Part shown: positions 46,817 to 62,336 of the stretch, piece by piece
Layout: each line of letters begins with the position of its first letter
How positions within the stretch are numbered: the stretch's first letter is position 1
Assembly: GCF_041919235.1 (NCBI RefSeq)
Contig: NZ_JAYRUC010000022.1
Location: 22,138-86,137, forward strand
Reading direction: 5' to 3'
Length of the DNA stretch: 64,000 nucleotides
DNA from: Pandoraea sp.
Lineage (GTDB): Bacteria; Pseudomonadota; Gammaproteobacteria; Burkholderiales; Burkholderiaceae
The notes under the pieces: model-generated
The model's database searches: none
Seen by the model: only the letters and a program-made list of their open reading frames with translations
What the model was told of the DNA's origin: nothing
Position numbers and translations under genes: made by a program

Positions 46817-46950
46817 ACCCTGCGGCAATACACCGGAAATGCCGGAAACGCCCGGCTGGCGCGGCCCCTTGCGGGGCACGTCTTTTGCTGGACAAACGAC
46901 GAATCGACGCCTATTATACGCATCGCGTACACATCCCTGCCGACCCGACC

Positions 46951-49399: not shown

Positions 49400-49580
49400 G
49401 GCGGGGTGGGAGCGTCGCCGCGAATGCCGTGCGTGGTCGAAAAATCCCGGATAAGACACGAAGCGCAGGATTTCTGCAGTTTCAAGGATTTACGCGTAAC
49501 GCACGCAGAGACAGCAAAAAATCTCTGAAAAAAGTGGTGACAATCGCGGAAATTCTGCTATTATCTCACTTCTTCGCAGC

Positions 49581-49656
49581 GCCGGAGTAGCTCAGTCGGT
49601 AGAGCAGCTCATTCGTAATGAGAAGGTCGGGGGTTCGATTCCTCTCTCCGGCACCA
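49581..49656 (+). tRNA. tRNA-Thr (anticodon CGU)
   Basis: Folded by hand. Perfect 7-bp acceptor stem GCCGGAG/CTCCGGC, D arm GCTC/GAGC, anticodon loop TTCGTAA, T loop TTCGATT, encoded CCA. Confidence 0.95.
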
Positions 49657-49663
49657 GCGACTT
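49643..49663 (+). repeat. attL core (tRNA-Thr 3' end + 7 nt)
   Basis: tctctccggcaccagcgactt. Repeated at 62041-62060 with one G missing. Confidence 0.8.
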
Positions 49664-49688
49664 AAATCGTTGGGTATGACGAAGTCCT

Positions 49689-49725
49689 AAAAACCCGCAT
49701 AAGCATTAGCTTTGCGGGTTTTTTG
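49689..49725 (+). terminator. Hairpin + T-run after tRNA-Thr (inside the element's left arm)
   Basis: aacccgca-N13-tgcgggtt followed by tttttgtt. Confidence 0.7.
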
Positions 49726-49841
49726 TTATCTCGCGAGGTACCATGCAATGCCCCCTAATCTCGACCAATCTGGGGGCATTTTTGGGGGCATAACGGAGCC
49801 CCCTGCGACCGATGCCCCCAAACCGGCATGGAGTCGTAATC

Positions 49842-51089
49842 ATGGCATTAACAGACGCTGAAGCTCGCACAGCGAAACCAACGCAAAAAACGTATCGACT
49901 TGCCGACGCCAACGGCATGTATCTCGAAGTCTCCCCCGGCGGCGCAAAGTACTGGCGATGGAAATATAGATTCGCCGGGAAGGAAAAGCGTCTAGCGCTG
50001 GGTCTGTATCCGAATGTCTCCCTAGCAGAAGCACGACGTGCCCGAGACGAAGCTCGGATGCAACTTGCTGACGGCATAGATCCGGGTGAAGCGAGGAAGG
50101 CGGAGAAACGCACCGCTCGCCTGAATTCTGAGAATTGCTTTGAAGCCGTAGCTCGCGAGTGGCACGCTAGATATGCGCCGAACTGGACTGACGGTTACGC
50201 GCAGAAAGTTCTGCGACGACTATCGCTGTATGCATTTCCATGGCTTGGTGGACGTCCGATTGCGGAGTTGGAAGCCGTGGAGGTATTGGACGCGTTAAGG
50301 CGCGTGGAGAAGCGCGGCAAGCTGGAAACTGCGCATCGTCTTCGAGTCAACATCGGTCAAGTGATGCGGTACGCGGTTGCCACAGCACGAGCCAAGCGCG
50401 ATGTAACGGTAGACCTGCGCGGCGCCCTGGCACCGATCCAGACAACGCACTTCGCGGCCATTACAGACCCCACCGAGCTTGGCCACCTTCTTCGAGCTAT
50501 AGACGGCTACACGGGGACATTCCCGGTGCTCTGCGCGCTCAAGCTTTCTCCCCTCCTCTTCCAGCGCCCCGGCGAGTTGCGACAAGCTGAATGGATTGAA
50601 TTCAACCTCGACTCGGCTACGTGGGAAGTGCCAAGCATTCGAATGAAGCGAATAAAGTCCGCGAAGCTCCGGGGAGCAGCGCATATCGTCCCGCTGCCGA
50701 GTCAGGCAGTCACAATACTCCGCGAGCTTCAAGCTTTGACCGGCAGCGGAAGATATCTCTTCCCGAGCGCACGCACCGCAGAACGCCCGATGAGCGATAA
50801 CGCATTGAACGCAGCCCTGCGACGGCTCGGATATGACAACGAAACAATGACGGGGCACGGCTTTCGCGCGACCGCGAGAACTATTCTTGACGAGATTCTA
50901 AACGTCCCCGTGGTTGCAATCGAAGCTCAATTAGCCCACACAGTGCGTGACCCTCTCGGCCGCGCCTACAACCGCACATCGCACGTCCCACAACGTAGGG
51001 CAATGATGCAGCTATGGGCAGACTATCTTTGCAAATTGCGTGCAGGCTGTGCTCATGCGCCGGCGAATAATGACCAGCCAATTCGTTAG
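49842..51089 (+). CDS. int: P4-type tyrosine integrase (DUF4102 N-terminal + phage integrase domain)
   Basis: Starts MALTDAEARTAKPTQKTYRLADANGMYLEVSPGGAKYWRWKYRFAGKEKRLALG. Carries HGFRATARTIL and a downstream catalytic Tyr region. Confidence 0.95.
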   Translation: MALTDAEARTAKPTQKTYRLADANGMYLEVSPGGAKYWRWKYRFAGKEKRLALGLYPNVSLAEARRARDEARMQLADGIDPGEARKAEKRTARLNSENCFEAVAREWHARYAPNWTDGYAQKVLRRLSLYAFPWLGGRPIAELEAVEVLDALRRVEKRGKLETAHRLRVNIGQVMRYAVATARAKRDVTVDLRGALAPIQTTHFAAITDPTELGHLLRAIDGYTGTFPVLCALKLSPLLFQRPGELRQAEWIEFNLDSATWEVPSIRMKRIKSAKLRGAAHIVPLPSQAVTILRELQALTGSGRYLFPSARTAERPMSDNALNAALRRLGYDNETMTGHGFRATARTILDEILNVPVVAIEAQLAHTVRDPLGRAYNRTSHVPQRRAMMQLWADYLCKLRAGCAHAPANNDQPIR

Positions 51090-51186
51090 ATTTTTCATTG
51101 CAACCAAGGAAACTCCGTGATATACGGAAATATCAACTCATATTCACCGAAAGAATTAAAAAAATTTACGCTAGGGGATTTTCCGA

Positions 51187-52839
51187 ATGGCAACTCTGTC
51201 GAGTGAAGTAGCAATACCAATTCCAACTTTTGATAAACGTCAACAAGCCTCGAATCAATCATCTACCATAGGCTTTGCAATTCCGAAGCTAAAGGAGAGA
51301 TACACCGACGAGCTTGTCATCGCCCTTGTCGGTCCAGTGGGCTCAGGCTGCACCACCGTTGCCACGCTGTTAGCCGATACCTTCCAAAGGGAATATGCTT
51401 ACGCTGTCGAACGCTATAGGATGAGCGATTACATCGGCGAATACGCAAATTTGGTTGATGAGTCGGTAGATCCAAATCTTCAAGGGTCAGAGCGGGTACG
51501 CCACCTTCAGAAAGTGGGGGACAAACTACGAAAGACATTCGATCCCGGCTATCTTGCGGCGAAAGTAATCGAAAAAATTGCTGAAGTACGAGCACAGGTC
51601 GGTACAGCACAAACAGCAGAGGGCTTAGACGTAGCCATCAGTCAGCGAAGAGTCCACATAATCGATTCGCTCAAGAACCCTAGCGAGTTGCAGTTACTAC
51701 GGAGAACCTACGGAAACATGTTGTGGGTGTTCGGTGTTTTCGCGCCGGAATCAGTGAGAAAGGAACGGCTGGTCCACGCACAGAAGTTGGATCTGGCAAG
51801 TCTTGAATTGATAATTTCAACCGACTACAGTGAGGTTGGTGATCACGGTCAAAGTGTCAAAGACGTTTTCCACGAGGCAGATTTCTTTGTTCGGAATGAT
51901 AGGTCTACCGAAGAGGACGTTAAGAAGGCTTTGGGGCGGTACCTCGAAATACTTTTTGGCTATCCGGTACATACGCCGACTACCGACGAATCCGCTATGT
52001 ATGCTGCGCATGCAGAAGCATCAAAATCAGCATGTATGTCTCGGCAAGTAGGTGCCTCGATCACATCTGCCGCAGGGGAAATTATCGGGCTTGGCAGAAA
52101 TGACGTTCCGAGATTTGGAGGCGGATTGTATGGTGAGGATGCTTCGGGGCCAGACAATCGATGCTACAAATGGACAGGGAAATGCTGTCACAACGATCAA
52201 AAAAAAGAGGCTCTGTACGAGGAAATTGCAAAACGACTTGCTGACAGCGGCTTGCTTGCTAAGTCTGCGGATAAATCGGCTGTTATCAGCGAGCTAAAAC
52301 AGACTGCCGTAAAACAGCTAATCGAATATTCGAGAGCTGTCCACGCAGAAATGGATGCTATTGTCTCGGTTGCCCGATCGAACAAAGCAGGACTCAGTGG
52401 CGGCACTCTATATGCGACCACGTTTCCGTGCCACTCTTGCGCTCGACATATAGTTGCGAGCGGCATTGCACGCGTCTTGTACATCGAGCCATATCCGAAA
52501 AGCTTGGCCCTTGATCTACATCGAGACGCTGTTTCGGAAGACCAACACATGGCACCTGAAATGGTTGTGTTCTTACAGTACTCCGGCGTTGCCCCGAAAA
52601 ACATGCTGCCTTTGTTCAAGTCCAAGTTGACACGCAAGGATAGCGATGGAAAACTGCGAGAGTTCGACAAACGCACTGCATCCCCGTTAGTAGCTGTCTC
52701 GTTGGATGACTTCCCAACCCACGAGAAATACGTCATCGCGGAGTATGCAAAACATGAAGAAAATGCAAAGCAACAAAGACAGGCAACTCTCTTTGGATCT
52801 GGATCCTCAGATGCTGACAGCCCCTCCGCGCCCTCATGA
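51187..52839 (+). CDS. P-loop kinase-like / cytidine-dCMP deaminase fusion protein (DcdV-like anti-phage dCTP deaminase architecture)
   Basis: Walker A GPVGSGCT (aa 49-56). Zn-deaminase motifs HAE (386-388) and PCHSC (414-418). AT-rich relative to its surroundings. AGGGGA SD. Confidence 0.8.
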   Translation: MATLSSEVAIPIPTFDKRQQASNQSSTIGFAIPKLKERYTDELVIALVGPVGSGCTTVATLLADTFQREYAYAVERYRMSDYIGEYANLVDESVDPNLQGSERVRHLQKVGDKLRKTFDPGYLAAKVIEKIAEVRAQVGTAQTAEGLDVAISQRRVHIIDSLKNPSELQLLRRTYGNMLWVFGVFAPESVRKERLVHAQKLDLASLELIISTDYSEVGDHGQSVKDVFHEADFFVRNDRSTEEDVKKALGRYLEILFGYPVHTPTTDESAMYAAHAEASKSACMSRQVGASITSAAGEIIGLGRNDVPRFGGGLYGEDASGPDNRCYKWTGKCCHNDQKKEALYEEIAKRLADSGLLAKSADKSAVISELKQTAVKQLIEYSRAVHAEMDAIVSVARSNKAGLSGGTLYATTFPCHSCARHIVASGIARVLYIEPYPKSLALDLHRDAVSEDQHMAPEMVVFLQYSGVAPKNMLPLFKSKLTRKDSDGKLREFDKRTASPLVAVSLDDFPTHEKYVIAEYAKHEENAKQQRQATLFGSGSSDADSPSAPS

Positions 52840-52967
52840 GAAGTTGGTATCGTCATCCGTTGTGCGTTTCCCCACCAGCAGCTTGACGACGTCCTTCCAG
52901 CGGCATGTCATCAGCCAATTGGTTCGCACAAAGGTCATTGTTAAATAGGCCCACGACCGGAGATCTC

Positions 52968-52992
52968 GGAATGCACCAATTTTGTGCATTCC
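52968..52992. terminator. Perfect 9-bp-stem hairpin 129 nt after the deaminase stop
   Basis: ggaatgcac-caatttt-gtgcattcc followed by tctt. Confidence 0.6.
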
Positions 52993-53172
52993 TCTTAGTA
53001 GTCGTTGCGGCTGTATAGCTCCTCGCAGACCTCACCGTTGCGCCGTAACAACGTGTGGTACCTGCGACACAAGCATTCCGCTATCGGATATCGCCCCACA
53101 TTTGTTGAATAACCGGCCGTTCGCTCTACGCCCCCCTGCTTCTCCACCACCTGTCGTAAACCTTCCCTGCTT

Positions 53173-53451
53173 TTATCCAGCCTTCCTTATGGTCTGCAAG
53201 TCCCGAGCAATTCGCGCTAGTGTGGGCGAGGTGTGGCCGTTCGCCTCGTCCGTCTTCCCGGTCATCAGCCAATAAGCGTATTGGGGCCACACATTTCCGA
53301 GCGCTTCGAGCATGTCATCGCTTGCTCGCTGCTGTCCCCGAACTACGTTTTGCCAACGTCGTCCGTTTATTCCTGTGCGAGCCTCCATGTCGACCCAAGG
53401 CCGACGCGGGTCAAGCTCGACGTCGGCTAACTCCTTAATTCGCCCTCGCAT
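53173..53451 (-). CDS. Phage CI/Cro-like HTH repressor
   Basis: 92 aa. Has a ...YAYWLMTGK... tail typical of CI-type HTH proteins. Divergent from the phage structural operon. Confidence 0.65.
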   Translation of the reverse strand: MRGRIKELADVELDPRRPWVDMEARTGINGRRWQNVVRGQQRASDDMLEALGNVWPQYAYWLMTGKTDEANGHTSPTLARIARDLQTIRKAG

Positions 53452-53485
53452 TTCGGACTCATCCCAATCCCAATTTCAACGCCAT

Positions 53486-53502
53486 CGACTAACATTTAGT
53501 CG
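53486..53502. promoter_or_regulatory. Perfect palindrome CGACTAA-CAT-TTAGTCG in the divergent promoter region (candidate operator)
   Basis: Read directly. Located between the repressor start (53451) and the first rightward gene (53574). Confidence 0.55.
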
Positions 53503-53573
53503 TTGGCACATTGATTTGTTGTCCATACTTTTTCTGCCGAATCACGCGACCGTTTCCATATGGAGTTTGGCGA

Positions 53574-54200
53574 ATGACCAGCAAACAAAAGCTCACCATC
53601 CTCGAAGTCACCCGACGTCAAGGCATATCCAGCAAGACTGGCCGTCCTTACGACATGCGCATCGCGGATTGCATCCTCTGGCAAACGACTAGCGAGGGAG
53701 ACGACTCCGTTGTCGGCTTGGTCACGCTTCCCGACGTACTCAAAGATTCGCGCGAAGGCGAATACCTCGCGGAATTCGCTTTCGGACGATCATTTGAGGG
53801 CCAGCTTGTCCCGCGCATTGTCGCGTTGCAGCCCTTCGGAGATGGTGCCAACCCTACTTCTCCAATCGAAAAACAGAGGGTCTCTATCATCAACGTTGTA
53901 CGACGCGAAGGCATATCCAGCAAAACCGGCCGTCCTTACGACATGCGTACTGCGCAATGCATCCTGTGGCCAAACTCGAGCGATGGCCCTCGGCGCATCG
54001 TTGGCACAATCACTCTTCCCGAGTTCGCCAAAGAAACCCCGAAGGGCGAGTACTTCGCAGAGTTCGCCATGACGCAGTCGATGGACTGTCACCTTGTCCC
54101 GCGCATTGTAGCGTTGCACCCCTACGTAAGTGACGCCCGCCCGACCGCTACTCCCAAGGCTACCGCCGCTGCGAAGGCTACCGCCACTGCCGCCGCATAG
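53574..54200 (+). CDS. Putative phage ssDNA-binding protein, internally duplicated (2 x ~96 aa) with an Ala/Thr/Lys tail
   Basis: The two halves align residue-for-residue (RRQGISSKTGRPYDMRIADCILW / RREGISSKTGRPYDMRTAQCILW). The function is assigned only from its position as first gene of the rightward operon. Confidence 0.6.
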   Translation: MTSKQKLTILEVTRRQGISSKTGRPYDMRIADCILWQTTSEGDDSVVGLVTLPDVLKDSREGEYLAEFAFGRSFEGQLVPRIVALQPFGDGANPTSPIEKQRVSIINVVRREGISSKTGRPYDMRTAQCILWPNSSDGPRRIVGTITLPEFAKETPKGEYFAEFAMTQSMDCHLVPRIVALHPYVSDARPTATPKATAAAKATATAAA

Positions 54201-54317
54201 CTTTGCCTAGCCTCACGTCGTCTATCTAAAAGACGACAACCTGTAGTTCTATCCGGCCCCCCGCCAGATTCTTTGCACCGTCACCGCTGACCGGCCGTGA
54301 TGGGATTGGGGGTTGCG

Positions 54318-54614
54318 ATGCTTCACCAACTGTCTCTCGACCTATTCGGCGGCTTCTGTCCCGCTCGAATCAAACAGCGGCGTACGCCTCGCCCTCTCCC
54401 GATTGCCTACCGCCCGTGGCGTCAACTGCGCCTCAAGCTGCCTCTGCGTCGCCTCATCAAAGCCGGTAAGGGCTTCATCTGGACGCGTCCCGACGGCGTT
54501 CAGTTCGTGTGCAAAACCATGCGCGCGCTCGTCGCCCGAATCATGGATTACGACGGCCACCTGCTGCCCGCGTGCATGCGCTCGGCCATGAGCCAGTCGC
54601 TCAAGCGTCAATGA
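54318..54614 (+). CDS. Hypothetical phage protein
   Basis: GC-rich third positions. GGGGG lies upstream of the ATG. No recognisable motif. Confidence 0.45.
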   Translation: MLHQLSLDLFGGFCPARIKQRRTPRPLPIAYRPWRQLRLKLPLRRLIKAGKGFIWTRPDGVQFVCKTMRALVARIMDYDGHLLPACMRSAMSQSLKRQ

Positions 54615-54639
54615 CAGCCGCAACCGTATAGGTCCCGAT

Positions 54640-54900
54640 ATGACAGCCCCCACTGACCTTATCAACCGCACCGTGACCGCCACTGACGGCACGTGCATGT
54701 GTATCGCCCGCATTGGCGGCGTTCGCGCGGATGACACCGAACGCTTCGGCCGCATGCTCGAAGCCGCTGCACTGCTTTACGAAACCGTACAGGTTCTCGC
54801 CGGTGCGCTCGACCTTGCCTATGAAGCGCACGAGTTACCGCAACCGGCTTGCTCAAAGTTCGCGTGGCAGATCCTCAACAACATCAATCGTGGGGGATGA
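54640..54900 (+). CDS. Hypothetical phage protein
   Basis: Coding-like codon bias. Its stop overlaps the next start. Confidence 0.5.
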   Translation: MTAPTDLINRTVTATDGTCMCIARIGGVRADDTERFGRMLEAAALLYETVQVLAGALDLAYEAHELPQPACSKFAWQILNNINRGG

Positions 54901-55172
54901 CAGTGAGTGAACAAGCTATTCGCGTACTGAGCTGCACACCTGCTCGCAGTGCGGCGGTGGTAACGCCGACAGACCGTCAACTGTGCCCGCCCGAGAACGG
55001 CCAGCTATTCGCAGTTACGGCCACACCGCCCTCGCCATCCCCCACAAGTGGAACACCGCTCGACATTCAACAAATGGCGGGCTTCTGGACATTGGCCTTC
55101 ACGATGGTCGTTGGACTGTATGTCGTGAGTGCCCATGTAGGCGCAGTTCTCGGCTTCATACGCCGGGGATAA
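54897..55172 (+). CDS. Small phage membrane protein (C-terminal TM, possible minor coat)
   Basis: ATGA coupling. C-terminal hydrophobic segment FWTLAFTMVVGLYVVSAHVGAVLGFI followed by RRG. Confidence 0.5.
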   Translation: MTVSEQAIRVLSCTPARSAAVVTPTDRQLCPPENGQLFAVTATPPSPSPTSGTPLDIQQMAGFWTLAFTMVVGLYVVSAHVGAVLGFIRRG

Positions 55173-55219
55173 GCCAGCGCGCCGGACGCACTCCGGTATT
55201 TACCAGTGAAGGAATCACT

Positions 55220-55474
55220 ATGAAATTCAAAAACATGTTGCAGAAAGTGAAGCACGCGGGCGCAGTCGTGAGCGTCGCCGTACTGAGTGCTGCCCCGATG
55301 TATGCGCGAGCCGAAGATGCTCAAGCGCTCGGGTCCGACTTTTCGCAATTGACGAAGGCGATCAGCCTCGGGGACATCATTGCCGTACTGATGGGCGTCG
55401 GTTCGCTGTTTGCCGGTGTGTACGTGACGATGAAGGGTATCGGTCTCGTCATTCGACTGATTCGCGGTAACTGA
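55220..55474 (+). CDS. Inovirus major coat protein (g8p-like)
   Basis: Signal peptide ending ARA. The mature ~53 aa has an acidic N-terminus, a hydrophobic core and a basic C-terminus (IRLIRGN). GAAGGA SD. Confidence 0.8.
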   Translation: MKFKNMLQKVKHAGAVVSVAVLSAAPMYARAEDAQALGSDFSQLTKAISLGDIIAVLMGVGSLFAGVYVTMKGIGLVIRLIRGN

Positions 55475-55601
55475 TCGAGCCACGGTGGGAAGCGATCCGG
55501 ACGCTTCCCGGCAGCAACTGCAAGGGCCAAATCAATCAAACCTAGTACTACGTTCTGAACGAAGGGGCCGTACTCACCAAACGCATTCATCGAGGTTTTC
55601 T

Positions 55602-55805
55602 ATGGATCAAAAGATGTTTGAGGACTTGCAAATTCTGATCTCCTACGCCGCGACACTGTCATTTATCGGCGGAATCTTTGGGGCGGTAATTGGCCAGTTC
55701 TTGATCGACGTTATGGACTGGCTGCGCAGAAGGTATGAGGCGCAGCGAAACGCAGACGGAAGTCCCACTGCGTGCCAAGAGCCTGCTCCAAAAAACGTTG
55801 CGTAG
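55602..55805 (+). CDS. Small phage membrane protein
   Basis: 67 aa with one TM (ILISYAATLSFIGGIFGAVIGQFLI). GAGG SD. Confidence 0.5.
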   Translation: MDQKMFEDLQILISYAATLSFIGGIFGAVIGQFLIDVMDWLRRRYEAQRNADGSPTACQEPAPKNVA

Positions 55806-55957
55806 TTGTCGATGCAACACGATGTCTTTCGCAATCCGCCAGCCCATCCGCCACGCCAAGGACTCCCAATGCCCGCACAAGAACTTTGGAATTTGATGTT
55901 TTTCGCGTGGGGCATCGCCTGCGGATGGGCTGTCGTTCAAGGCTTGAGGAGCATGTG

Positions 55958-57706
55958 ATGAAGAAGCTACTCATCGTGGCGCTCGGGTTCGCCTTTGTGA
56001 TCAGCATTGCAAACGAGGTCCGCGCCATTCCGCTTGCCGCTGCGTACTCCACGCTCGTCATGAACCAGTCGGTTGCATTGGTCACGCAAAAGGCAGTGCA
56101 ACGAGATGGGATTTCACCGGACGACGAGAGGCTCAACGCAACGTATAAGGCAATGGAGCGCGTTGCCACCGAACATGCCGAAACGTCGTTAGCTGAACGG
56201 ATGTACATCGCAGCCGGTGCACCTACGTGGTTTGGGCTTGCAGCAACGCTATTGGGGGCGCAACTCGGTGAAATCGCGGTCGGCAAGTTTAAGAACATGG
56301 ACGTGACCGTCACCGCCCCGTCCGCCAATGCAATCGAAGTCAAACGTAAGGTTGACGTACCGATCCCCGACCATCTGAAACCCTATGTCCCGCCGCATTA
56401 CCCGCCGGTTAGTGTTGTCGCCAGTGAGGGACCATGGGAGGCGATGGTAGCGGCCGGAGCCAGGGTATACCGCGACTCATCGTGCATGGCCGGTGAGCCA
56501 TGCGCAAAATTTCCCAAAGAGCCGTGGTCTTCCATGAGTCGCTTGGTCGACTGGTACTGGAGTTCATGGAGCGACATGACTGTCATTGCCCGCAGCCGTG
56601 AGCAGCTTGAGGAGTACTTGCGCATCTTCATGGAGGCAAAACTCCGCATCGGCGGGATAACCGCCAGAAACGTGCGCGTCCGAATTGCGGATGAACTCGA
56701 CGCTAATGGGGTGCCCGTAAAGACATGGGCCTATCGTTCGTATGAATATGAGAAGTGCGAACAGGTGCAGAAGACGGTCGTGGACGTTTCAAAGAAGGAA
56801 TGTCCAGATGTCGTAAAAGAATCACCGAATGCCATCGAGTGGCCTGCATGTACAAGAAAGGTCACGGAAGAGGTTTGCGCGTGGCAAGTGGCTCCGGAAG
56901 CGGATGGCTGGTCAGACGGATTAGCGCCCGGTCACATCCGTCCAGACGAGTTGGATATGAGCGGCTATGGCCTTCAGGAGCGGGCACGCACCTATAGCTC
57001 ATTGGATGAAGCATATGCGGACCTCTCCGATGAAGAGAAGCGGCTCGACGTAAATCCCAAGTTAGTTGCCGACGTCGCGAATGCCCTGGCCCACAAAGCG
57101 AGTCAGCAAAAGGACTATCGCGGCGTGCCGTACCGATTGACGTCACCCATTACCCCGCAGGACGTGAAGGAATGGGTCGAGGGAAAGGGGCGCGGGGCGC
57201 TTCCTCAGTTGATTGACGTCTTTTCTCGTCCCGCGCCCGCTTATGAGCGAGTAGTGCCAATTCACGTCACGATAACGCCGGACAGAACGTGGCCCGATAG
57301 TCGCGTCACGACTGGTGGCCGTGACGGTGATCGTGGCGGTGATCGAGAAAAGACGAAAGACGGACAATCGAAAGACGTCAATGTCGTCAACACTCCAGGC
57401 GTTTACGTCAAAAACCCAGTCGAGATCGATCTCGGACAAGCGCCCGACGTCGGCGCTCCGCCCCTCGAATCTGCGCCGACGGCAGAGATGATCTTGTCCC
57501 CCATTCTCGGGTTGCTGTCCGATTTTAGAAAATGGACAGTGCCCGCACATACCGGTAGCTGTCCGCGCCCGAGCGTCACGATATTTCAACGCGAAATCCG
57601 AATGGACTCGATGTGCAAACTCGCAGAAGAACAGCGGGTTGCAATTCATCGCGTGATGCTTGCAGCTTTCGTTCTCGCTGCCTTGTTGCTCGTGTTGTCT
57701 GCGTGA
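55958..57706 (+). CDS. Inovirus adsorption/minor coat protein (g3p-like)
   Basis: Signal peptide MKKLLIVALGFAFVISIANEVRA. Gly/Asp/Arg-rich linker (GGRDGDRGGDRE). C-terminal membrane anchor. Positioned after the coat gene. Confidence 0.7.
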   Translation: MKKLLIVALGFAFVISIANEVRAIPLAAAYSTLVMNQSVALVTQKAVQRDGISPDDERLNATYKAMERVATEHAETSLAERMYIAAGAPTWFGLAATLLGAQLGEIAVGKFKNMDVTVTAPSANAIEVKRKVDVPIPDHLKPYVPPHYPPVSVVASEGPWEAMVAAGARVYRDSSCMAGEPCAKFPKEPWSSMSRLVDWYWSSWSDMTVIARSREQLEEYLRIFMEAKLRIGGITARNVRVRIADELDANGVPVKTWAYRSYEYEKCEQVQKTVVDVSKKECPDVVKESPNAIEWPACTRKVTEEVCAWQVAPEADGWSDGLAPGHIRPDELDMSGYGLQERARTYSSLDEAYADLSDEEKRLDVNPKLVADVANALAHKASQQKDYRGVPYRLTSPITPQDVKEWVEGKGRGALPQLIDVFSRPAPAYERVVPIHVTITPDRTWPDSRVTTGGRDGDRGGDREKTKDGQSKDVNVVNTPGVYVKNPVEIDLGQAPDVGAPPLESAPTAEMILSPILGLLSDFRKWTVPAHTGSCPRPSVTIFQREIRMDSMCKLAEEQRVAIHRVMLAAFVLAALLLVLSA

Positions 57707-57713
57707 GGTCGCC

Positions 57714-58013
57714 ATGCCGCTATTCGCTATTCTTGTTGCTGCGCTTAACAGCGCCTTGGTATTTCTGCTGCGCTCAGTGCTGGTCAAATTCGGCACATTC
57801 TTCGCGCTATGGTTTATCACTACAGGCTTTATCGAGGTACTCCAGCGATCCGGTGTCTTGCCAAACGCGCGGGCGCTCGACAATGCATTCGGCGGCTTAT
57901 CGAGTGATATGTGGTACTGGCTCGACTTGTTTGCCGTTCCGTCCGGCATGCCCATCATCGTGGGGGCAGCGGCAACCCGCTTTATCATCCGGCGCTTGCC
58001 GATTATCGGGTGA
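57714..58013 (+). CDS. Inovirus minor coat protein (g6p-like, DUF2523-type)
   Basis: 99 aa, hydrophobic. Positioned between the g3p-like gene and Zot. Confidence 0.65.
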   Translation: MPLFAILVAALNSALVFLLRSVLVKFGTFFALWFITTGFIEVLQRSGVLPNARALDNAFGGLSSDMWYWLDLFAVPSGMPIIVGAAATRFIIRRLPIIG

Positions 58014-58017
58014 CGCC

Positions 58018-59082
58018 ATGGCCATCAATGCATACACCGGCCTGATGGGGTCCGGTAAAAGTTATGAGGTGGTCAGTAGCGTTATCGTGCCGGCTGTGAT
58101 CGCAGGGCGACGTGTCGTGACCAACATCGACGGCATACAGCCTGACCTCATTCGCAAATACTGCATCGATGTTCATAAGGCCGACGAGGGCGCATTGGGC
58201 GAAATTGTCCCGGTGACGAATGACGATGTAACGCGAGAGGGCTTCTTTCCCGACGAGACCAAACCCGAATCTCCGTCCATTGTGAAGCCCGGCGACCTTG
58301 TCACCATCGACGAGGCGTGGAATTTCTGGTCAACCAGCGGCAAGCTTTCGCCGGAGCATATGCGCTTTTTTCGCATGCACCGTCATTACGTGCATCCGGA
58401 CACTGGCATTGCATGCGATGTCGCTTTAATGATCCAGTCGATTGGCGATCTGCACCGCCAGTTGCGCGCCGTCGTGGAAATCACCTTCGTCACGAAGAAG
58501 CTCAAGGAACTGGGCTTCAACACGCGTTATCGCGTTGAGATGTATGAGGGTGGCAAAGTTACCAAGTTGAATCGGCTTGATACCTTCAACAAGACATATA
58601 GCAAGGCCGTTTTCCCTTTGTATCAATCGTACGCGGGCGGCAAGGGCAAAGAGAAGACCATCGACCGGCGTCAGAATCTGCTTAGCAACAAGCGGTTGTG
58701 GGGCTTAGCAATTGCCGTGGTTGCATCTTGGTCCATCGGCGGGACAATCGTCTGGCGGTACTTCCATCCGAGCGTCGACAATGCGGCAAAACCTGCCCAG
58801 ACGCCGGGGTATGCGTCCGCAGAGGCCATGCGTGCTTCCGCCAGCGATGCGAACACGTCATCGCCAGCGCAAAGTGCCTTCAGCGCAGGGTGGCGAGTGG
58901 CCGGGCACTATACGGTCGGGGACGGTCGATATGTTGTTGTCGCCGACGGCACAGGACGCCTTCGCGTCGAGTCGCCATCGGTGTTTCAAAACAGCGGCAT
59001 AGCTATCGTCGGTACGATCGATGGTGAGAGGGTAACGTCTTGGACAGGTGTCGCCCCGACAGGTAGAGGGGGCGTGCAATGA
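58018..59082 (+). CDS. Zot / g1p-family phage assembly ATPase
   Basis: MAINAYTGLMGSGKSYEVV Walker A, an IDEAW Walker B-like segment, and a TM segment near aa 290. Confidence 0.9.
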   Translation: MAINAYTGLMGSGKSYEVVSSVIVPAVIAGRRVVTNIDGIQPDLIRKYCIDVHKADEGALGEIVPVTNDDVTREGFFPDETKPESPSIVKPGDLVTIDEAWNFWSTSGKLSPEHMRFFRMHRHYVHPDTGIACDVALMIQSIGDLHRQLRAVVEITFVTKKLKELGFNTRYRVEMYEGGKVTKLNRLDTFNKTYSKAVFPLYQSYAGGKGKEKTIDRRQNLLSNKRLWGLAIAVVASWSIGGTIVWRYFHPSVDNAAKPAQTPGYASAEAMRASASDANTSSPAQSAFSAGWRVAGHYTVGDGRYVVVADGTGRLRVESPSVFQNSGIAIVGTIDGERVTSWTGVAPTGRGGVQ

Positions 59083-60779
59083 AATTCGCCCTGTGCACGC
59101 TGTTGAGCGTTGCAGCGCTGAGTGCTCACGCAGATGAATCCAAGATTGTCCAAGCCCCCATCGACTTTTCCGGTTTCCGTGAGCAAGAGGAGTACTCCCC
59201 GCTCGATCACTCGTCGCACCCGATGCTCGACGTTGAGCAAAAGCGGCAGGTGCAAAACGTCCCCCGCGGATCTCGACAACCAAAAATGACGGCTGGTGCG
59301 TTCGACTTCCAGCTTGTCAGTGTCTCGCAACTCATCACGCTGCTGTACGGCGAGGCGGTCAAGACACCGTACGTCATTGCACCGGAAGTGCTGCAAGACC
59401 AGCGACTAGTCTCTTTTCGCTACAACACGAAGCGCGGCGACCTGAAAGCGTTCCTCGCGCTATTTCTCGACTCGCTCGGCTTTTGCGTCGAGACACGATC
59501 AGGTGTCGACTTTGTTTTCAAGCGTCAGGAAGTCGATGCTGCCGTTGAGCCGAACCGCGACACGTTCGTCTATCACCCGCAGTATCGGGACACCGCATAT
59601 CTTGCGCGTCTCACCAGTCCGCTGTTCCGTGGTCAATTCACCGTCAATCGATCCGTTTCCGCGCCGCCGGAAACTCGCGTCGGCGGCCAGGTGCCGGACG
59701 GCTCTGTGGCATCGTTGATCGACCAGCGCGGCGATACGTTGCTCTTTCACGGTACGCCTTCTGAGATCGCAGTGCTTAAGCACCTGCTCCCTCAGCTCGA
59801 CACCCCTATGGGCGAAGTTAGCGTGCGTGCGGCCGCTTACGAAGTCGTCAATAGTTCCGAACGCGGCTCTGCCTTTCAACTCGCGCTGGATCTGCTCTCG
59901 AAGGGGCTCGGTATTGAGGTCTCTGTAGATGGGGACAAGTTCGGCAACGCAATCCGCTTGAAAGCGGGCGACTTCTCCACGGTCTTCTCGGCTTTGGCCA
60001 AGGACACCCGTTTTCAGGTCATCAACAGCCCGAACCTGCGCATTCGCTCCGGCGCTAGGGGCCGTCTCACGGTCGGCCAGAAGGTGCCTATCCTCAAGTC
60101 TGTGAGCTATCCGCGCGGTGGTGGTGAGCCGGTGCAATCGGTCGAATACCACTCGTCAGGTGTCATCTTCGAACTGGCCCCAACGGTCAAGGACCGAATC
60201 ATTGATCTGCGAGTTACCCAGCAGATCAGTGACTTCGTGAAAACGACGACTGGCGTCAACAACTCGCCGACGCTCAACACCCGAGAAGTCAGCACTGAAA
60301 TCAGTCTGCACGACGGTGACGTGATCCTCATGGGCGGTCTGACAACCAACAAGAGCACCGACAACCGCACGGGATTGGCGTTCCTGCCGCGCTTTCTGGA
60401 CAGTCATAGCGACGCCACGTCGAACACGGAAATCCTGCTGATGCTCCAGGTGGAGCGCGTGAGGGAGTCTAGCGTCGGGAGTGTCGGCGCCGATGCCGAA
60501 GCCGAAGGTGCTCACGAGCCGCACCGCGAAGTCCGGACCGATGACGCGCGGCCCAGCGCGGCTCGCGCGACCGAGCAGCGGGTAGCACTGCCGACGTCGG
60601 CCGAAGCTGCAACGTCCATCGCACCTCCCCTCACTGAAGACCGCTTTGCCGTCAGTCCTGTGCGTGAAGTGGCGCAGATGTCAGAGAGGGCGACGCGTCG
60701 GCCGCCCCCGCCGCCCGCAGGGTCGAGGACGGCGGGGGCGCGCGAAGCGCGCCCCTATATTTATATCAGTAACACTTAA
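59079..60779 (+). CDS. Phage-encoded secretin (g4p / GspD-family) with a ~105-aa C-terminal tail
   Basis: Signal peptide. Secretin core GQKVPIL...VIFELAPTV...GDVILMGGL...GLAFLPRFL. The start overlaps the Zot stop (ATGA). Confidence 0.85.
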   Translation: MKFALCTLLSVAALSAHADESKIVQAPIDFSGFREQEEYSPLDHSSHPMLDVEQKRQVQNVPRGSRQPKMTAGAFDFQLVSVSQLITLLYGEAVKTPYVIAPEVLQDQRLVSFRYNTKRGDLKAFLALFLDSLGFCVETRSGVDFVFKRQEVDAAVEPNRDTFVYHPQYRDTAYLARLTSPLFRGQFTVNRSVSAPPETRVGGQVPDGSVASLIDQRGDTLLFHGTPSEIAVLKHLLPQLDTPMGEVSVRAAAYEVVNSSERGSAFQLALDLLSKGLGIEVSVDGDKFGNAIRLKAGDFSTVFSALAKDTRFQVINSPNLRIRSGARGRLTVGQKVPILKSVSYPRGGGEPVQSVEYHSSGVIFELAPTVKDRIIDLRVTQQISDFVKTTTGVNNSPTLNTREVSTEISLHDGDVILMGGLTTNKSTDNRTGLAFLPRFLDSHSDATSNTEILLMLQVERVRESSVGSVGADAEAEGAHEPHREVRTDDARPSAARATEQRVALPTSAEAATSIAPPLTEDRFAVSPVREVAQMSERATRRPPPPPAGSRTAGAREARPYIYISNT

Positions 60780-60899
60780 CGTACAAACACCCGGCAAGCC
60801 CTGCCCGTAAAGGCAAGAACACTCCCCCCGAAAAAAGAAAGGCCCCGACCGCTGGAACGGTTCGAGGCCTGTACATCAACACGACAATTAGGAGTTGCC

Positions 60900-61676
60900 A
60901 TGTTTGAGACAAGTGTAAGTGATTATCCCTTCCGCCGCGAATACGTCGTCGGTGGTCGCGACTTTGGCGATGGTCAGGTAGAAATCGTCGTTACGCAGTT
61001 CGACCGCTACATGCGGGCACAGCAGCTTCACATGATGCCCAAAGCGAAGCGCGGCGAATCCGAGAAGAAGGAAGACAACCGGCTCGTGGCAGCCAAGCGG
61101 GCCAAACAGCAGGTCAGATTTCGCTGCAAGGCCATGCACGCGGATCGCATGATCACGTTGACGTACCGGGAGAACATGGAGGACAAGGAACGCCTCAAAC
61201 GCGACTTTGACAAGCTCCGGCGTCGTTTGGCGAAGCTCCATGACTTCCAGTATGTCGCCGTTCCCGAACGACAGATGCGCGGTGCGTGGCATCTGCACAT
61301 CGCCGTGAAGGGACGCCAGAACTACCGAGTGCTGCGCGCGATCTGGATTTCAATCGTCGGGGACGACAACGGCTATGTCCGAGTTTCCAACCCGTTCCGT
61401 CAAAAGGGCTTGCGCCACAAGCTGGCCGCCTATCTGAGCAAGTACATCACGAAAGACTTTGCCGAACACGAGATGAACGAGAAGCGCTATTGGACCAGCA
61501 AGGGGATCGCGGTTCCTGAGCGGCAGCCTATCGCCCACATCCTTAACGACGAACCCGAAAAGGCCATCGTGACCGCTTTCGAAGCGGCGGAGGCGTGGGG
61601 CGCGAGGTTGGACGACTGTCAGGTGTTCTGGGACGACTGGCAGGGGTGTTTGTGGCTAGCTACCCGCGAGACATGA
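60900..61676 (+). CDS. Rolling-circle replication initiator (HUH superfamily)
   Basis: Motifs ITLTY, HLHIAV (HUH) and YLSKYITKD (catalytic Tyr). AGGAG SD. Confidence 0.85.
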   Translation: MFETSVSDYPFRREYVVGGRDFGDGQVEIVVTQFDRYMRAQQLHMMPKAKRGESEKKEDNRLVAAKRAKQQVRFRCKAMHADRMITLTYRENMEDKERLKRDFDKLRRRLAKLHDFQYVAVPERQMRGAWHLHIAVKGRQNYRVLRAIWISIVGDDNGYVRVSNPFRQKGLRHKLAAYLSKYITKDFAEHEMNEKRYWTSKGIAVPERQPIAHILNDEPEKAIVTAFEAAEAWGARLDDCQVFWDDWQGCLWLATRET

Positions 61677-61722
61677 CGCAAAACGTTCCCACTAGTTCAA
61701 TCGCCCCAACCAATAGGAGCAC

Positions 61723-62007
61723 ATGATGCAAGCATCAACGAATTCAGCTACTCTCTCCAACGCCACACTGCCGAGTGTCGGTTTCGTCCGATTGCCTCAA
61801 GTTCTGGCCGCATTCCCTGTATCCCGGTCCGTTTGGCTCAGAGGAGTAAAGGAAGGACGATTCCCGAAGCCCGTTCACCTCGGCCCGCGTACTGTGGCAT
61901 GGCGAGTTGAGGACATCAGGACACTGATCGGAACGGCCTCAGAGGGCACATTAGGGGGTGGGGGCATCGCTGGGGGCATCAGCAAAACCGGATTCGGCGA
62001 AGCCTGA
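61723..62007 (+). CDS. AlpA-family excisionase/regulator
   Basis: FVRLPQVLAAFPVSRSVWLRGVKEGRFPKPVHLGPRTVAWRVEDIRTLI is the AlpA/Xis-type HTH. It is the last gene before attR. Confidence 0.85.
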   Translation: MMQASTNSATLSNATLPSVGFVRLPQVLAAFPVSRSVWLRGVKEGRFPKPVHLGPRTVAWRVEDIRTLIGTASEGTLGGGGIAGGISKTGFGEA

Positions 62008-62040
62008 TGCCATAAGGCTTGCAGCGGGTTATTAGGTTCT

Positions 62041-62060
62041 TCTCTCCGCACCAGCGACTT
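62041..62060 (+). repeat. attR core (degenerate copy of the tRNA-Thr 3' end)
   Basis: tctctccgcaccagcgactt compared with tctctccggcaccagcgactt at 49643. Confidence 0.8.
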
Positions 62061-62300
62061 CTTCAGTCCCTGGTCATGCAAGCAAGACGCAGTCCTTAGC
62101 AGTCAACAAGAAAGCCGCCCGAGTCAGTCGTGCGGCTTTTTTGTTTTCCCCCGCTCAGATCTCGCATCGTCGATCCAGTCAACGATACTGGGGGTGCTTC
62201 TGGGGGCATTTTTGGCGGCATTTCTGGGGGCATTTTCACCAGCGCCACGACCGATGCCCCCTACGCACCCCCAACAACGTCGTTGCCCCCATCGCCGACT
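62061..62300. mobile_element. Remnant left arm of a second, related integrative element (hairpin + arm-site cluster, no genes)
   Basis: It has the same layout as 49664-49830: hairpin with T-run (62112-62142), TGGGGGCAT copies (62201, 62225), and gaccgatgccccc shared with 49808. Confidence 0.6.
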
Positions 62301-62336
62301 TACCCTGGCCCGGGGGATATCGGACACGACACGGCG

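What the first reader, a model, noticed from the sequence alone, without database searches (positions are those of the whole stretch)
51187..52839. AT-rich cargo gene encoding a P-loop-kinase/cytidine-deaminase fusion (DcdV-like nucleotide-depletion defence) inside a filamentous prophage
The 550-aa product has an N-terminal Walker A (GPVGSGCT). Its C-terminal zinc deaminase domain carries HAE...PCHSC, split by a Cys-rich insert (CYKWTGKCCHNDQ).

This is the architecture published in 2022 for V. cholerae DcdV and for anti-phage dCTP deaminases, which defend by depleting dCTP.

The gene is compositionally foreign. Two 60-nt lines I counted inside it are 42-45% GC, against about 70% for a core line I counted at 48001. 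It sits between the integrase and the phage repressor, the classic moron position.

I am not aware of such a gene having been described as inovirus cargo. It raises a question: a phage that replicates by rolling-circle ssDNA synthesis must itself tolerate or silence a dCTP-depleting enzyme.
Basis: partly seen in the sequence, partly recalled or inferred. Interest (0 to 1): 0.75.

Follow-up and report, generated by a model that had tools for sequence, protein, structure and literature searches.

The report
Anti-phage dCTP deaminase in filamentous prophage
A filamentous prophage in a Pandoraea chromosome carries a known type of anti-phage enzyme that removes the DNA building block dCTP; the enzyme is ordinary, but it comes with an undescribed 64-residue partner gene that carries a motif like those that bind the replication sliding clamp.

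Summary
ORF 51187-52839 encodes a 550-aa fusion of a kinase-like domain and a zinc deaminase. It passes the curated models for the anti-phage dCTP deaminase family (PADLOC E=9e-165; NCBIfam equivalog 466 bits, cut-off 400). NCBI already names this exact protein "anti-phage dCTP deaminase [Pandoraea sp.]". So the gene call is correct but not new.

The gene lies inside a 12.4-kb integrated inovirus at tRNA-Thr, bounded by att repeats, between a P4-type integrase and a repressor-like gene. Related Pandoraea inoviruses hold AbiE, a Z1/helicase protein, a PLD-like nuclease or DUF2726+ParD in that slot. A Paraburkholderia inovirus with a serine recombinase carries a 71%-identical deaminase. I found no paper reporting this gene in an inovirus. 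Defence cargo in filamentous prophages is, however, published.

One new point: a 64-aa ORF (52754-52948) overlaps the deaminase 3' end. It is under purifying selection and accompanied a dCTP deaminase gene at all 13 distinct other loci examined. It has a near-invariant N-terminal QLSLxL/F, which fits the beta-clamp-binding consensus. Its function is untested.

The parts
49581..49656 (+). tRNA-Thr (anticodon CGU), the integration target
   Evidence: ARAGORN; Rfam tRNA 67.4 bits
49640..49663 (.). attL core, made of the 3' end of the tRNA plus 7 nt (TCCTCTCTCCGGCACCAGCGACTT)
   Evidence: Repeated at 62035-62060 with one indel. The 12-mer CACCAGCGACTT occurs only at these two sites in the window.
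49842..51089 (+). P4-type tyrosine integrase, 415 aa from MALTDA
   Evidence: Pfam Arm-DNA-bind_3 9e-27, Phage_int_M 8e-36, Phage_integrase 3.5e-11; phrog_1
51187..52839 (+). Anti-phage dCTP deaminase, 550 aa. Kinase-like N-domain with P-loop G49-x4-G54-C55-T56. Zinc deaminase C-domain with H386, E388, C415, C418.
   Evidence: PADLOC dCTPase 9e-165; NCBIfam NF041025 466 bits against cut-off 400; Pfam; AF2 model and Foldseek; residue conservation; identical protein named by NCBI
52754..52948 (+). Conserved 64-aa ORF overlapping the last 86 nt of the deaminase gene in another frame. It has an N-terminal QLSLDL (clamp-binding-motif-like) and a C-terminal FQRHVISQLVRTKVIVK.
   Evidence: Found with a dCTP deaminase gene at 13 distinct other loci. 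pN 0.27 against pS 0.75 in its own frame, reversed in the other frames. About 70 clusters at 50% identity, all 54-87 aa. No Pfam or PADLOC hit.
53173..53451 (-). Repressor-like transcriptional regulator, 92 aa, divergent from the phage structural operon
   Evidence: phrog_147 transcriptional regulator 2.4e-15; homologues at the same position in related Pandoraea inoviruses
53574..54200 (+). Inovirus ssDNA-binding protein, a tandem duplication of the domain
   Evidence: phrog_2866 1.9e-65 with two stretches; 116-nt direct repeat at 76% identity
55220..55474 (+). Major coat protein, 84 aa
   Evidence: phrog_2186 and phrog_6548; start placed
55958..57706 (+). g3p-like minor coat / adsorption protein
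   Evidence: phrog_7187 1.3e-62
57714..58013 (+). g6p-like minor coat protein (DUF2523)
   Evidence: Pfam DUF2523 8e-11; phrog_974
58018..59082 (+). Zot / pI-like assembly ATPase
   Evidence: Pfam Zot 1.1e-26; phrog_197 6.8e-80
59079..60779 (+). pIV-like secretin
   Evidence: Pfam Secretin 2.4e-20; phrog_1012 9.8e-115
60900..61676 (+). Rolling-circle replication initiator
   Evidence: Pfam REP_ORF2-G2P 4e-17; phrog_3419 7.8e-109
61723..62007 (+). AlpA-family DNA-binding protein, a likely excisionase
   Evidence: Pfam Phage_AlpA 6e-11
62035..62060 (.). attR core (GGTTCTTCTCTCCGCACCAGCGACTT)
   Evidence: The same junction is conserved in L002 and L004.

Best explanation
The gene encodes a functional member of the anti-phage dCTP deaminase family (AvcD/DcdV type). 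It is carried as accessory cargo in the variable slot next to the lysogeny genes of a 12.4-kb inovirus integrated at tRNA-Thr in a Pandoraea chromosome.

**Shown here:**
- family membership;
- intact catalytic residues and P-loop residues;
- location inside the att-bounded prophage;
- a slot that is variable and holds defence-family or toxin-antitoxin genes in relatives.

**Inferred from published work on family members:**
- The enzyme is kept inactive in the lysogen.
- When a lytic phage shuts down host transcription, the enzyme deaminates dCTP/dCMP to deoxyuridine nucleotides, which starves the invader's DNA synthesis.
- The resident filamentous phage does not shut off host transcription, so it does not trigger the enzyme. 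It benefits because its chronically infected host survives.

**Inferred here, less firmly:** in this clade the deaminase works with the translationally overlapping 64-aa protein encoded at 52754-52948. That protein would act as a regulator or adaptor. Its N-terminal QLSLxL/F motif may bind the beta sliding clamp, and its C-terminal conserved segment may bind the deaminase.
For: **Family membership.**
- Family HMMs above curated thresholds.
- Two-domain fold.
- H386, E388, C415, C418, G49 and G54 are invariant in 46 homologues.
- The P-loop reads G-C-T, as in the E. coli enzyme, where G29A and C30A abolish defence. DcdV has Ser at the equivalent position, mutated as S52K.

**Location in the prophage.**
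- att repeats at 49640-49663 and 62035-62060 enclose int, deaminase, repressor, the inovirus core, Rep and AlpA.
- GC steps from 64.8% to 57.7% to 49.4%.

**Variable slot.** In related Pandoraea inoviruses it holds AbiEi/AbiEii, a Z1/Helicase_II protein, a PLD-like nuclease, or DUF2726+ParD.

**Other phages with the gene.**
- A Paraburkholderia megapolitana inovirus carries a 71%-identical deaminase between Rep and a resolvase.
- IMG/VR inovirus contig L027 carries a 35%-identical one.

**Activation logic.** Taken from PMC10511110 and bioRxiv 10.1101/2021.04.26.441389.

**Small ORF.**. The clamp-binding-motif definition Q-phi-x-[LM]-x-[FL] and the Hda peptide PAQLSLPLYL (KD 0.38 uM) come from PMC11139829.
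Against: - No biochemical or phage-challenge data exist for this protein.
The tested relatives are probably only about 35-40% identical, judging from enterobacterial plasmid homologues.
- No AvcI-like RNA could be recognised upstream. The spacer is 97 nt, the fold z-score is +0.65, and there is no conservation. How this copy is kept off is therefore unknown.
- The small ORF is absent next to 17 of 21 IMG/VR homologues and next to 4 plasmid homologues. It is not a general requirement of the family.
- Clamp binding rests on a 6-residue motif only.
- Excision and packaging of the deaminase with the phage genome have not been shown.
Confidence: 0.8

Rival explanations
1. The deaminase plus small ORF acts mainly as a toxin-antitoxin-like addiction or stabilisation module for the prophage. 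It could also control co-resident or superinfecting inoviruses. Protection from lytic phages would then be a side effect or absent.
For: - AvcID is described as a type III toxin-antitoxin system, and DcdV over-expression is toxic.
- Toxin-antitoxin pairs are the commonest cargo of filamentous prophage variable loci (PMC11630473).
- A Pf accessory toxin-antitoxin system mediates polylysogeny (PMC12328805).
- The overlapping two-gene layout resembles type II toxin-antitoxin operons.
- ParD and AbiE occupy the same slot in relatives.
Against: - The two roles are not mutually exclusive.
- Family members that were tested do protect against lytic phages.
- The same two-gene module also occurs outside prophages, in chromosomal islands.
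Confidence: 0.25
2. The integrase and deaminase form a separate small integrative island that happens to lie beside an independently integrated inovirus. On this reading the deaminase is not phage cargo and is not packaged.
For: - The closest backbone relative, P. bronchicola L003 (92-96% identical in SSB, orf105, orf86 and Rep), uses a different integrase at the other end, next to tRNA-His, and lacks this int. The lysogeny module is therefore exchangeable.
- A degenerate copy of the int-proximal sequence lies just outside attR at 62063-62290, which shows serial use of this tRNA site.
- The deaminase has a lower GC than the rest of the element.
Against: - There is only one att pair, and it encloses everything. 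No att-like core lies between the deaminase and the repressor.
- AlpA, the usual partner of P4-type integrases, sits at the far end next to attR.
- P. commovens L004 has the same order, int, then different cargo, then repressor, inovirus, Rep and AlpA, with int 82% and Rep 80% identical.
- A second inovirus backbone carries the same deaminase clade.
Confidence: 0.1
3. It is a nucleotide-metabolism gene that serves the phage's own replication, as T4 cd (dCMP deaminase) does by feeding dUMP/dTTP synthesis. On this reading it is not a defence gene.
For: The C-terminal domain has the dCMP deaminase fold and its best solved relatives are T4 Cd and human DCTD. phrog_174 'dCMP deaminase' gives 3.4e-26.
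Against: - The full-length match is to the defence family, not to biosynthetic enzymes. ComEB TIGR02571 scores 45.6 bits against a cut-off of 219.
- The fused kinase-like domain with a degenerate P-loop is the family hallmark.
- The gene is absent from most related inoviruses and is replaced there by other cargo, mostly defence-family or toxin-antitoxin genes.
Confidence: 0.05

Closest known systems
Anti-phage dCTP deaminase (E. coli AW1.7 enzyme; 'Antiviral defense via nucleotide depletion in bacteria', bioRxiv 10.1101/2021.04.26.441389)
   Same: - N-terminal kinase-like domain plus C-terminal zinc deaminase.
- The P-loop has Gly-Cys where Walker A has Gly-Lys (G29/C30 there, G54/C55 here).
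- Zinc-binding cysteines are essential.
- The protein passes the PADLOC and NCBIfam models built for this family.
   Different: - Carried by an inovirus.
- Followed by a conserved overlapping 64-aa ORF that is not described for the E. coli system.
- Identity to the tested protein was not measured here.
AvcID (DcdV-DifV) of Vibrio cholerae VSP-1 and its enterobacterial homologues (bioRxiv 10.1101/2021.03.31.437871; PMC10511110)
   Same: Same two-domain architecture. Functional residues line up with an offset of 3-4 positions:
- S52 in DcdV corresponds to C55 here;
- E384 corresponds to E388;
- C411 and C414 correspond to C415 and C418.
   Different: - AvcID has its inhibitor, the AvcI sRNA (annotated as a small ORF), 5' of the deaminase. 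I saw that layout on E. coli, Klebsiella and Photobacterium plasmids.
- Here the upstream spacer is 97 nt, with no detectable structure or conservation.
- Here the conserved small gene is 3' and protein-coding.
Burkholderia phage phiE094 gp47/gp46 (P2-like, Peduoviridae; NC_055911)
   Same: - The deaminase is 40.6% identical over 87% of the query and sits near the integrase.
- It is followed by a small ORF that begins MDRDKQLSLNF, with the same N-terminal motif.
   Different: It is a tailed temperate phage. The small ORF does not overlap the deaminase, and its C-terminus is not alignable to the Pandoraea family.
Variable or accessory loci of filamentous prophages (Vibrio: PMC11630473, PMC12715192; Pseudomonas Pf KKP: PMC11341870)
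   Same: A defined hypervariable slot near the regulatory and lysogeny genes of an inovirus, carrying anti-phage or toxin-antitoxin cargo that benefits the chronically infected host.
   Different: - Those reports list toxin-antitoxin systems, retrons, PARIS, restriction-modification and KKP. The word 'deaminase' does not occur in the main text of either Vibrio paper.
- Here the host is a betaproteobacterium and integration uses a P4-type integrase at a tRNA rather than XerCD/dif.
Hda N-terminal clamp-binding motif (QLSLPL) and the beta-clamp-binding-motif consensus Q-phi-x-[L/M]-x-[F/L] (PMC11139829)
   Same: The small ORF has QLSLDL at residues 11-16, close to its N-terminus. Q, L, S and L are invariant in the 23 aligned members, and position 6 is L or F.
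   Different: The protein is unrelated to Hda. Binding is untested. Several distant family members deviate from the motif, for example QLSFEL and QRSLEF.

Membership tests
Anti-phage dCTP deaminase / AvcD (DcdV) family | Full-length match to the curated family models | tested here: met
   NCBIfam NF041025 equivalog gives 466.2 bits against a cut-off of 400, covering model positions 1-437 of 437. PADLOC PDLC02373 gives E=9.3e-165.
Anti-phage dCTP deaminase / AvcD (DcdV) family | N-terminal P-loop-kinase-like domain fused to a C-terminal CDA/dCMP-type zinc deaminase domain | tested here: met
   - Pfam dCMP_cyt_deam_1 at residues 265-432.
- phrog_139 dNMP kinase at residues 37-262.
- The AF2 model matches AdkA-like kinase 3lw7 (TM 0.83-0.86 on the target) and dCMP deaminases 1vq2, 2w4l and 2hvw.
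Anti-phage dCTP deaminase / AvcD (DcdV) family | Catalytic H-A-E and P-C-x-x-C zinc-site residues present | tested here: met
   H386, A387, E388, P414, C415 and C418 are invariant in 24 and in 46 homologues.
Anti-phage dCTP deaminase / AvcD (DcdV) family | Degenerate P-loop (GxxxxG followed by Cys/Ser instead of Lys) that is required for activity | tested here: met
   The sequence is G49-PVGS-G54-C55-T56, and position 55 is never Lys in 24 homologues. Requirement for activity is shown only in relatives, through G29A/C30A and S52K.
Anti-phage dCTP deaminase / AvcD (DcdV) family | Infection-triggered deamination of dCTP/dCMP and protection from lytic phages | not testable with these tools
   This needs phage challenge and LC-MS of dNTP pools.
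AvcID subtype (type III toxin-antitoxin-like) | Cognate inhibitory sRNA (AvcI/DifV, about 170 nt) encoded immediately 5' in the same operon | tested here: inconclusive
   - Only 97 nt separate int and the deaminase.
- The fold z-score is +0.65.
- There is no upstream conservation among 11 clade members, and no Rfam hit.
- Known AvcI homologues share no sequence similarity either, so absence cannot be proven.
Integrated inovirus (filamentous prophage) | Inovirus morphogenesis and replication gene set: Zot/pI, pIV secretin, major and minor coat proteins, ssDNA-binding protein, rolling-circle Rep | tested here: met
   Pfam and PHROG hits for all of them, in canonical order.
Integrated inovirus (filamentous prophage) | Defined ends that include the cargo gene (att repeats, recombinase) | tested here: met
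   The tRNA-Thr 3'-end repeat is at 49640-49663 and 62035-62060. The integrase is at the left end and AlpA at the right. No empty-site comparison was made.
Integrated inovirus (filamentous prophage) | Excision and production of virions that package the whole element | not testable with these tools
   This needs induction, junction PCR and virion DNA sequencing.
Beta-clamp-binding proteins (small ORF 52754-52948) | Clamp-binding motif Q-phi-x-[L/M]-x-[F/L] in an exposed or terminal region | tested here: met
   - QLSLDL is at residues 11-16.
- Q, L, S and L are invariant in 23 members.
- The analogous ORFs of phiE094, L027 and L057 have QLSLNF, QLDLDF and QLSLDF.
- Only 0.67% of small ORFs in the held DNA carry such a motif near the N-terminus.
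- The consensus is from PMC11139829.
Beta-clamp-binding proteins (small ORF 52754-52948) | Physical binding to DnaN | not testable with these tools
   No complex prediction or binding assay was available.

The most novel reading that the evidence does not exclude
In this clade the dCTP deaminase would be a two-protein system rather than a single-gene system. The overlapping 64-aa protein would use its N-terminal QLSLxL/F motif to bind the beta sliding clamp and its conserved C-terminal segment to bind or regulate the deaminase. Nucleotide depletion would then be coupled to the state of the replisome, for example clamp availability during phage DNA replication or host DNA breakdown. This would be a protein-based counterpart of the AvcI RNA antitoxin. 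It would also explain how an ssDNA phage that depends on the host replisome can carry the enzyme safely.
Probability: 0.25. Interest if true: 0.7.

Novelty: new member of a known kind. Interest (0 to 1): 0.4.

Why it matters
**The gene itself.** It adds little. It is a routine member of a defence family described in 2021-22, and NCBI already names it as such.

**The context.** It extends a published pattern to betaproteobacterial inoviruses that integrate at tRNA genes: filamentous prophages keep a hypervariable slot next to their lysogeny genes, filled largely with anti-phage and toxin-antitoxin cargo. It also shows that a nucleotide-depleting enzyme can be carried by a phage that itself needs host dNTPs.

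**The most useful by-product.** The conserved small partner ORF offers a concrete, testable lead on an open question for this family: how the deaminase is held off and then switched on.

Tried and rejected
**Searches that gave nothing useful**
- Megablast of the whole 12.4-kb element against 50,697 phage records found no match.
- The PDB sequence search found only the deaminase-domain and kinase-domain relatives. There is no solved full-length family member.
- The Rfam scan of 49400-62400 found only the tRNA.
- The promoter/terminator scan of 49600-53600 gave fewer hits than shuffled sequence and was uninformative.
- No usable att repeats were found in L036, as expected for a serine recombinase. 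Its 'inside the prophage' status rests on gene order only: rsmD-like gene, insertion, coaD.

**Search for an AvcI-like upstream RNA**
- An alignment of the 250 nt upstream of 11 clade members shows 32% column identity, which is random.
- The fold of 51040-51200 has z = +0.65.
- This is not decisive, because known AvcI homologues are not conserved in sequence.

**Assignments considered and rejected**
- A housekeeping dCMP deaminase (ComEB/TadA) is rejected. ComEB scores 45.6 bits against a cut-off of 219 and TadA 13 bits against 150.
- The small partner ORF is not universal. It is absent by my scan next to 17 of 21 IMG/VR homologues and 4 plasmid homologues.
- Profile comparison could not show that the small ORFs of phiE094 and L027 are homologous to the Pandoraea family beyond the N-terminal motif.

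**Census and literature**
- Only 1 of 21 IMG/VR contigs with the deaminase is an inovirus. This used a tblastn panel of three inoviruses' genes, so distant inoviruses could be missed.
- Nine full-text searches found no paper that reports a dCTP deaminase in an inovirus or a clamp-motif partner. The library lacks most subscription journals.

**Not done**
- I made no comparison with an unoccupied tRNA-Thr site in another Pandoraea genome.
Full report
**1. The observation**

ORF 51187..52839 (+) is real and encodes 550 aa.
- The gene is 49.4% GC. The rest of the inovirus is 57.7% and the flanking chromosome 64.8%.

**2. What the protein is**

Curated models place it in the anti-phage dCTP deaminase family.
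- PADLOC 'dCTPase' PDLC02373 gives E=9.3e-165 over residues 24-532.
- NCBIfam NF041025 'anti-phage dCTP deaminase' (equivalog) gives 466 bits against a cut-off of 400, over the whole model.
- Pfam dCMP_cyt_deam_1 gives 2e-16.
- Biosynthetic relatives fail. ComEB scores 45.6 bits against a cut-off of 219.

The structure agrees. An AlphaFold2 model built on 46 homologues (mean pLDDT 84, pTM 0.82) has two domains.
- One matches an AdkA-like nucleotide kinase (3lw7, TM 0.83-0.86 on the target).
- The other matches dCMP deaminases (T4 Cd 1vq2, human 2w4l, S. mutans 2hvw).
- No full-length relative is in the PDB.

Residue conservation agrees as well.
- G49, G54, H386, E388, C415 and C418 are invariant across 46 homologues.
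- The P-loop is degenerate. Position 55 is Cys here and is never Lys in 24 homologues.
- This matches the tested enzymes. G29A and C30A kill defence in the E. coli protein. DcdV carries Ser at that position, mutated as S52K.
- DcdV E384 and C411/C414 correspond to E388 and C415/C418 here.
- In the 'Cys-rich insert' only C326 and C334 are invariant, plus H335 in 21 of 24. The segment is modelled with low confidence.

The identical protein is already in NCBI as 'anti-phage dCTP deaminase [Pandoraea sp.]'. More than 6,000 homologues were found with E of 1e-20 or better.

**3. Where the gene sits**

tRNA-Thr(CGU) lies at 49581-49656. It is followed by:
- a P4-type integrase (49842-51089);
- the deaminase;
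- a repressor-like gene on the minus strand (53173-53451);
- a tandem-duplicated ssDNA-binding protein;
- the major coat protein, a g3p-like protein and a DUF2523/g6p-like protein;
- Zot, a pIV secretin and a rolling-circle Rep;
- an AlpA-family protein ending at 62007.

The 3' end of the tRNA (49640-49663) is repeated at 62035-62060 with one indel. The 12-mer CACCAGCGACTT occurs only at those two places in the window. The deaminase is therefore inside a 12.4-kb att-bounded element whose core is an inovirus. The same right-hand junction is present in two other Pandoraea assemblies (L002, L004).

**4. Is this a cargo slot?**

I fetched 23 loci encoding relatives of the Rep protein, mostly from Pandoraea. 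The backbone is syntenic, but the segment just upstream of the repressor or SSB differs:

| Loci | Content of the slot |
|---|---|
| L006, L007, L008, L010, L011 | AbiEi/AbiEii |
| L005 | a Z1/Helicase_II protein |
| L004 | a PLD-like nuclease; backbone order is int, cargo, repressor, inovirus, Rep, AlpA |
| L003 | DUF2726 plus ParD |

The closest backbone relative, P. bronchicola L003, uses a different integrase at the other end, beside tRNA-His. The lysogeny module is therefore exchangeable as well. This fits published descriptions of hypervariable, defence-enriched loci in filamentous prophages (PMC11630473; PMC12715192; Pf KKP, PMC11341870).

**5. Other inoviruses with this gene**

- The 71%-identical homologue in Paraburkholderia megapolitana (L036) lies between Rep and a serine recombinase. 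That inovirus has Phage_Coat_B, DUF2523, Zot, a secretin and a DNA methylase, and is inserted between an rsmD-like gene and coaD.
- IMG/VR contig L027 carries a 35%-identical deaminase beside an integrase and repressor, and its Zot is 53% identical to the window's. Whether that deaminase lies inside or just outside that prophage cannot be decided from the contig.
- Of 21 IMG/VR contigs with the deaminase, only L027 is recognisably an inovirus.
- Other close homologues sit in chromosomal islands or other mobile elements.
- More distant ones sit in the P2-like phage phiE094, beside Mu-like phage genes, and on plasmids, including 4.6-kb Klebsiella plasmids.
- Carriage by inoviruses is therefore recurrent but uncommon. 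I found no paper that reports it.

**6.

Published work largely answers this.
- AvcD is inhibited by the labile AvcI RNA. It is released when an infecting phage stops host transcription (PMC10511110).
- The E. coli enzyme depletes dCTP only after infection. T7 escapes it through mutations in the RNAP inhibitor gp5.7.
- From general knowledge, filamentous phages do not shut off host transcription, so the resident phage should not trigger the enzyme. This step is inference.

For this copy no AvcI-like RNA is recognisable.
- The upstream spacer is 97 nt and is not unusually structured (z = +0.65).
- It is not conserved among clade members.
- Rfam finds nothing.
- Known AvcI homologues share no sequence similarity either, so absence is not proven.

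**7.

A 64-aa ORF (52754-52948) starts 86 nt before the deaminase stop codon, in another frame.

*Linkage to the deaminase.*
- An equivalent ORF follows every deaminase of at least 59% identity for which I hold downstream DNA.
- Every member of the small-protein family whose context I looked up overlaps the 3' end of a dCTP deaminase gene.
- Together these make 13 distinct other loci in very different neighbourhoods.

*Evidence that it codes for protein.*
- Its non-overlapping C-terminal 20 codons show pN 0.27 against pS 0.75 in its own frame.
- In the other two frames the ratio is reversed and stop codons occur.

*Size and annotation of the family.*
- It has about 70 clusters at 50% identity, all 54-87 aa.
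- Where named at all, members are 'hypothetical protein'.
- There is no Pfam or PADLOC match.

*The N-terminal motif.*
- QLSLx[L/F] is near-invariant.
- It fits the hexameric beta-clamp-binding consensus Q-phi-x-[L/M]-x-[F/L]. It closely resembles the Hda peptide PAQLSLPLYL, which binds the clamp with KD 0.38 uM (PMC11139829).
- Small ORFs immediately 3' of more distant deaminases carry the same motif at the same place: phiE094 gp46 has QLSLNF, L027 has QLDLDF and L057 has QLSLDF. Their remaining sequence is not alignable.

*Limits.*
- The ORF is absent next to 17 of 21 IMG/VR homologues.
- It is also absent from the enterobacterial and vibrio AvcID-type loci, which instead have the small 5' ORF/sRNA.
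- Some distant family members deviate from the motif.
- I infer that this clade's system has two genes, and that the small protein is a regulator or adaptor that may contact the sliding clamp. None of this has been tested.

**8. Verdict**

- The enzyme is an ordinary, already-annotated member of a known defence family, sitting in a known kind of prophage cargo slot.
- The inovirus association is a modest extension of published patterns.
- The small clamp-motif partner is the only element that could add something new to the field, and it needs experiments.

Noticed in passing
window 52754-52948 (+): A conserved 64-aa ORF overlaps the 3' end of the deaminase gene. It has an N-terminal QLSLDL (beta-clamp-binding-motif-like) and a C-terminal FQxRVIxxLxRTxV motif. 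It is under purifying selection and was linked to a dCTP deaminase gene at all 13 distinct other loci examined. Where named it is only 'hypothetical protein', and this copy is not in the protein collection.
   Followed up: yes
window 62063-62290: Just outside attR lies a diverged copy (about 70% identical) of the sequence that follows attL: a terminator-like hairpin, GGGGGCAT repeats and CGACCGATGCCCCC, which on the left run into the integrase start. It looks like the int-proximal remnant of an earlier related element at the same tRNA-Thr site. The same arrangement is present in L002.
   Followed up: partly
window 53574-54200 (+): The inovirus ssDNA-binding protein is a tandem duplication: two G5P-like domains, with a 116-nt direct repeat at 76% identity. 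L003 and L004 share the duplication. More distant relatives (L014, L015; about 101 aa) have a single domain.
   Followed up: partly
L003 10778-12274; L004 1-2600; L005-L011 1-3400: Related Pandoraea inoviruses exchange both cargo (AbiE, Z1/helicase, PLD-like nuclease, DUF2726+ParD) and lysogeny modules. P. bronchicola L003 has a different integrase and small Xis-like ORF at the Rep end, beside tRNA-His. L005-L011 show no integrase similar to the window's within 10 kb of Rep.
   Followed up: partly
L066 1721-1906; L067 124-306; L069 1717-1887; L027 1822-2025: The small ORFs 5' of AvcID-type deaminases on E. coli, Klebsiella and Photobacterium plasmids all end in a basic amphipathic stretch closing with K-[IL]-x-W (KKITW, KSLKW, QKIRW). 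The 3' small ORF of L027 ends RKLSW. This hints that the 5' and 3' small ORFs may be related, although the V. cholerae element was shown to act as RNA.
   Followed up: no
L049, L050 (MT839973, MT838710) and Klebsiella plasmids H42-H55: Two roughly 5-kb 'Bacteriophage sp.' records from human faeces carry a dCTP deaminase. They resemble in size the 4.6-kb ColRNAI Klebsiella plasmids that carry the same gene, so they may be small plasmids rather than phages.
   Followed up: no
L071 156-6851: A deaminase plus small-ORF pair sits directly beside Mu-like phage genes (Mor, gpT-like capsid, protease, MuB). This is another temperate phage type that carries the module.
   Followed up: no
window 46885-48234 (+): A 449-aa ORF (TTG start) has a C-terminal two-thirds that reads like an aspartate/ornithine carbamoyltransferase, preceded by an N-terminal extension of about 100 aa. 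The start codon or a fused regulatory domain was not checked.
   Followed up: no
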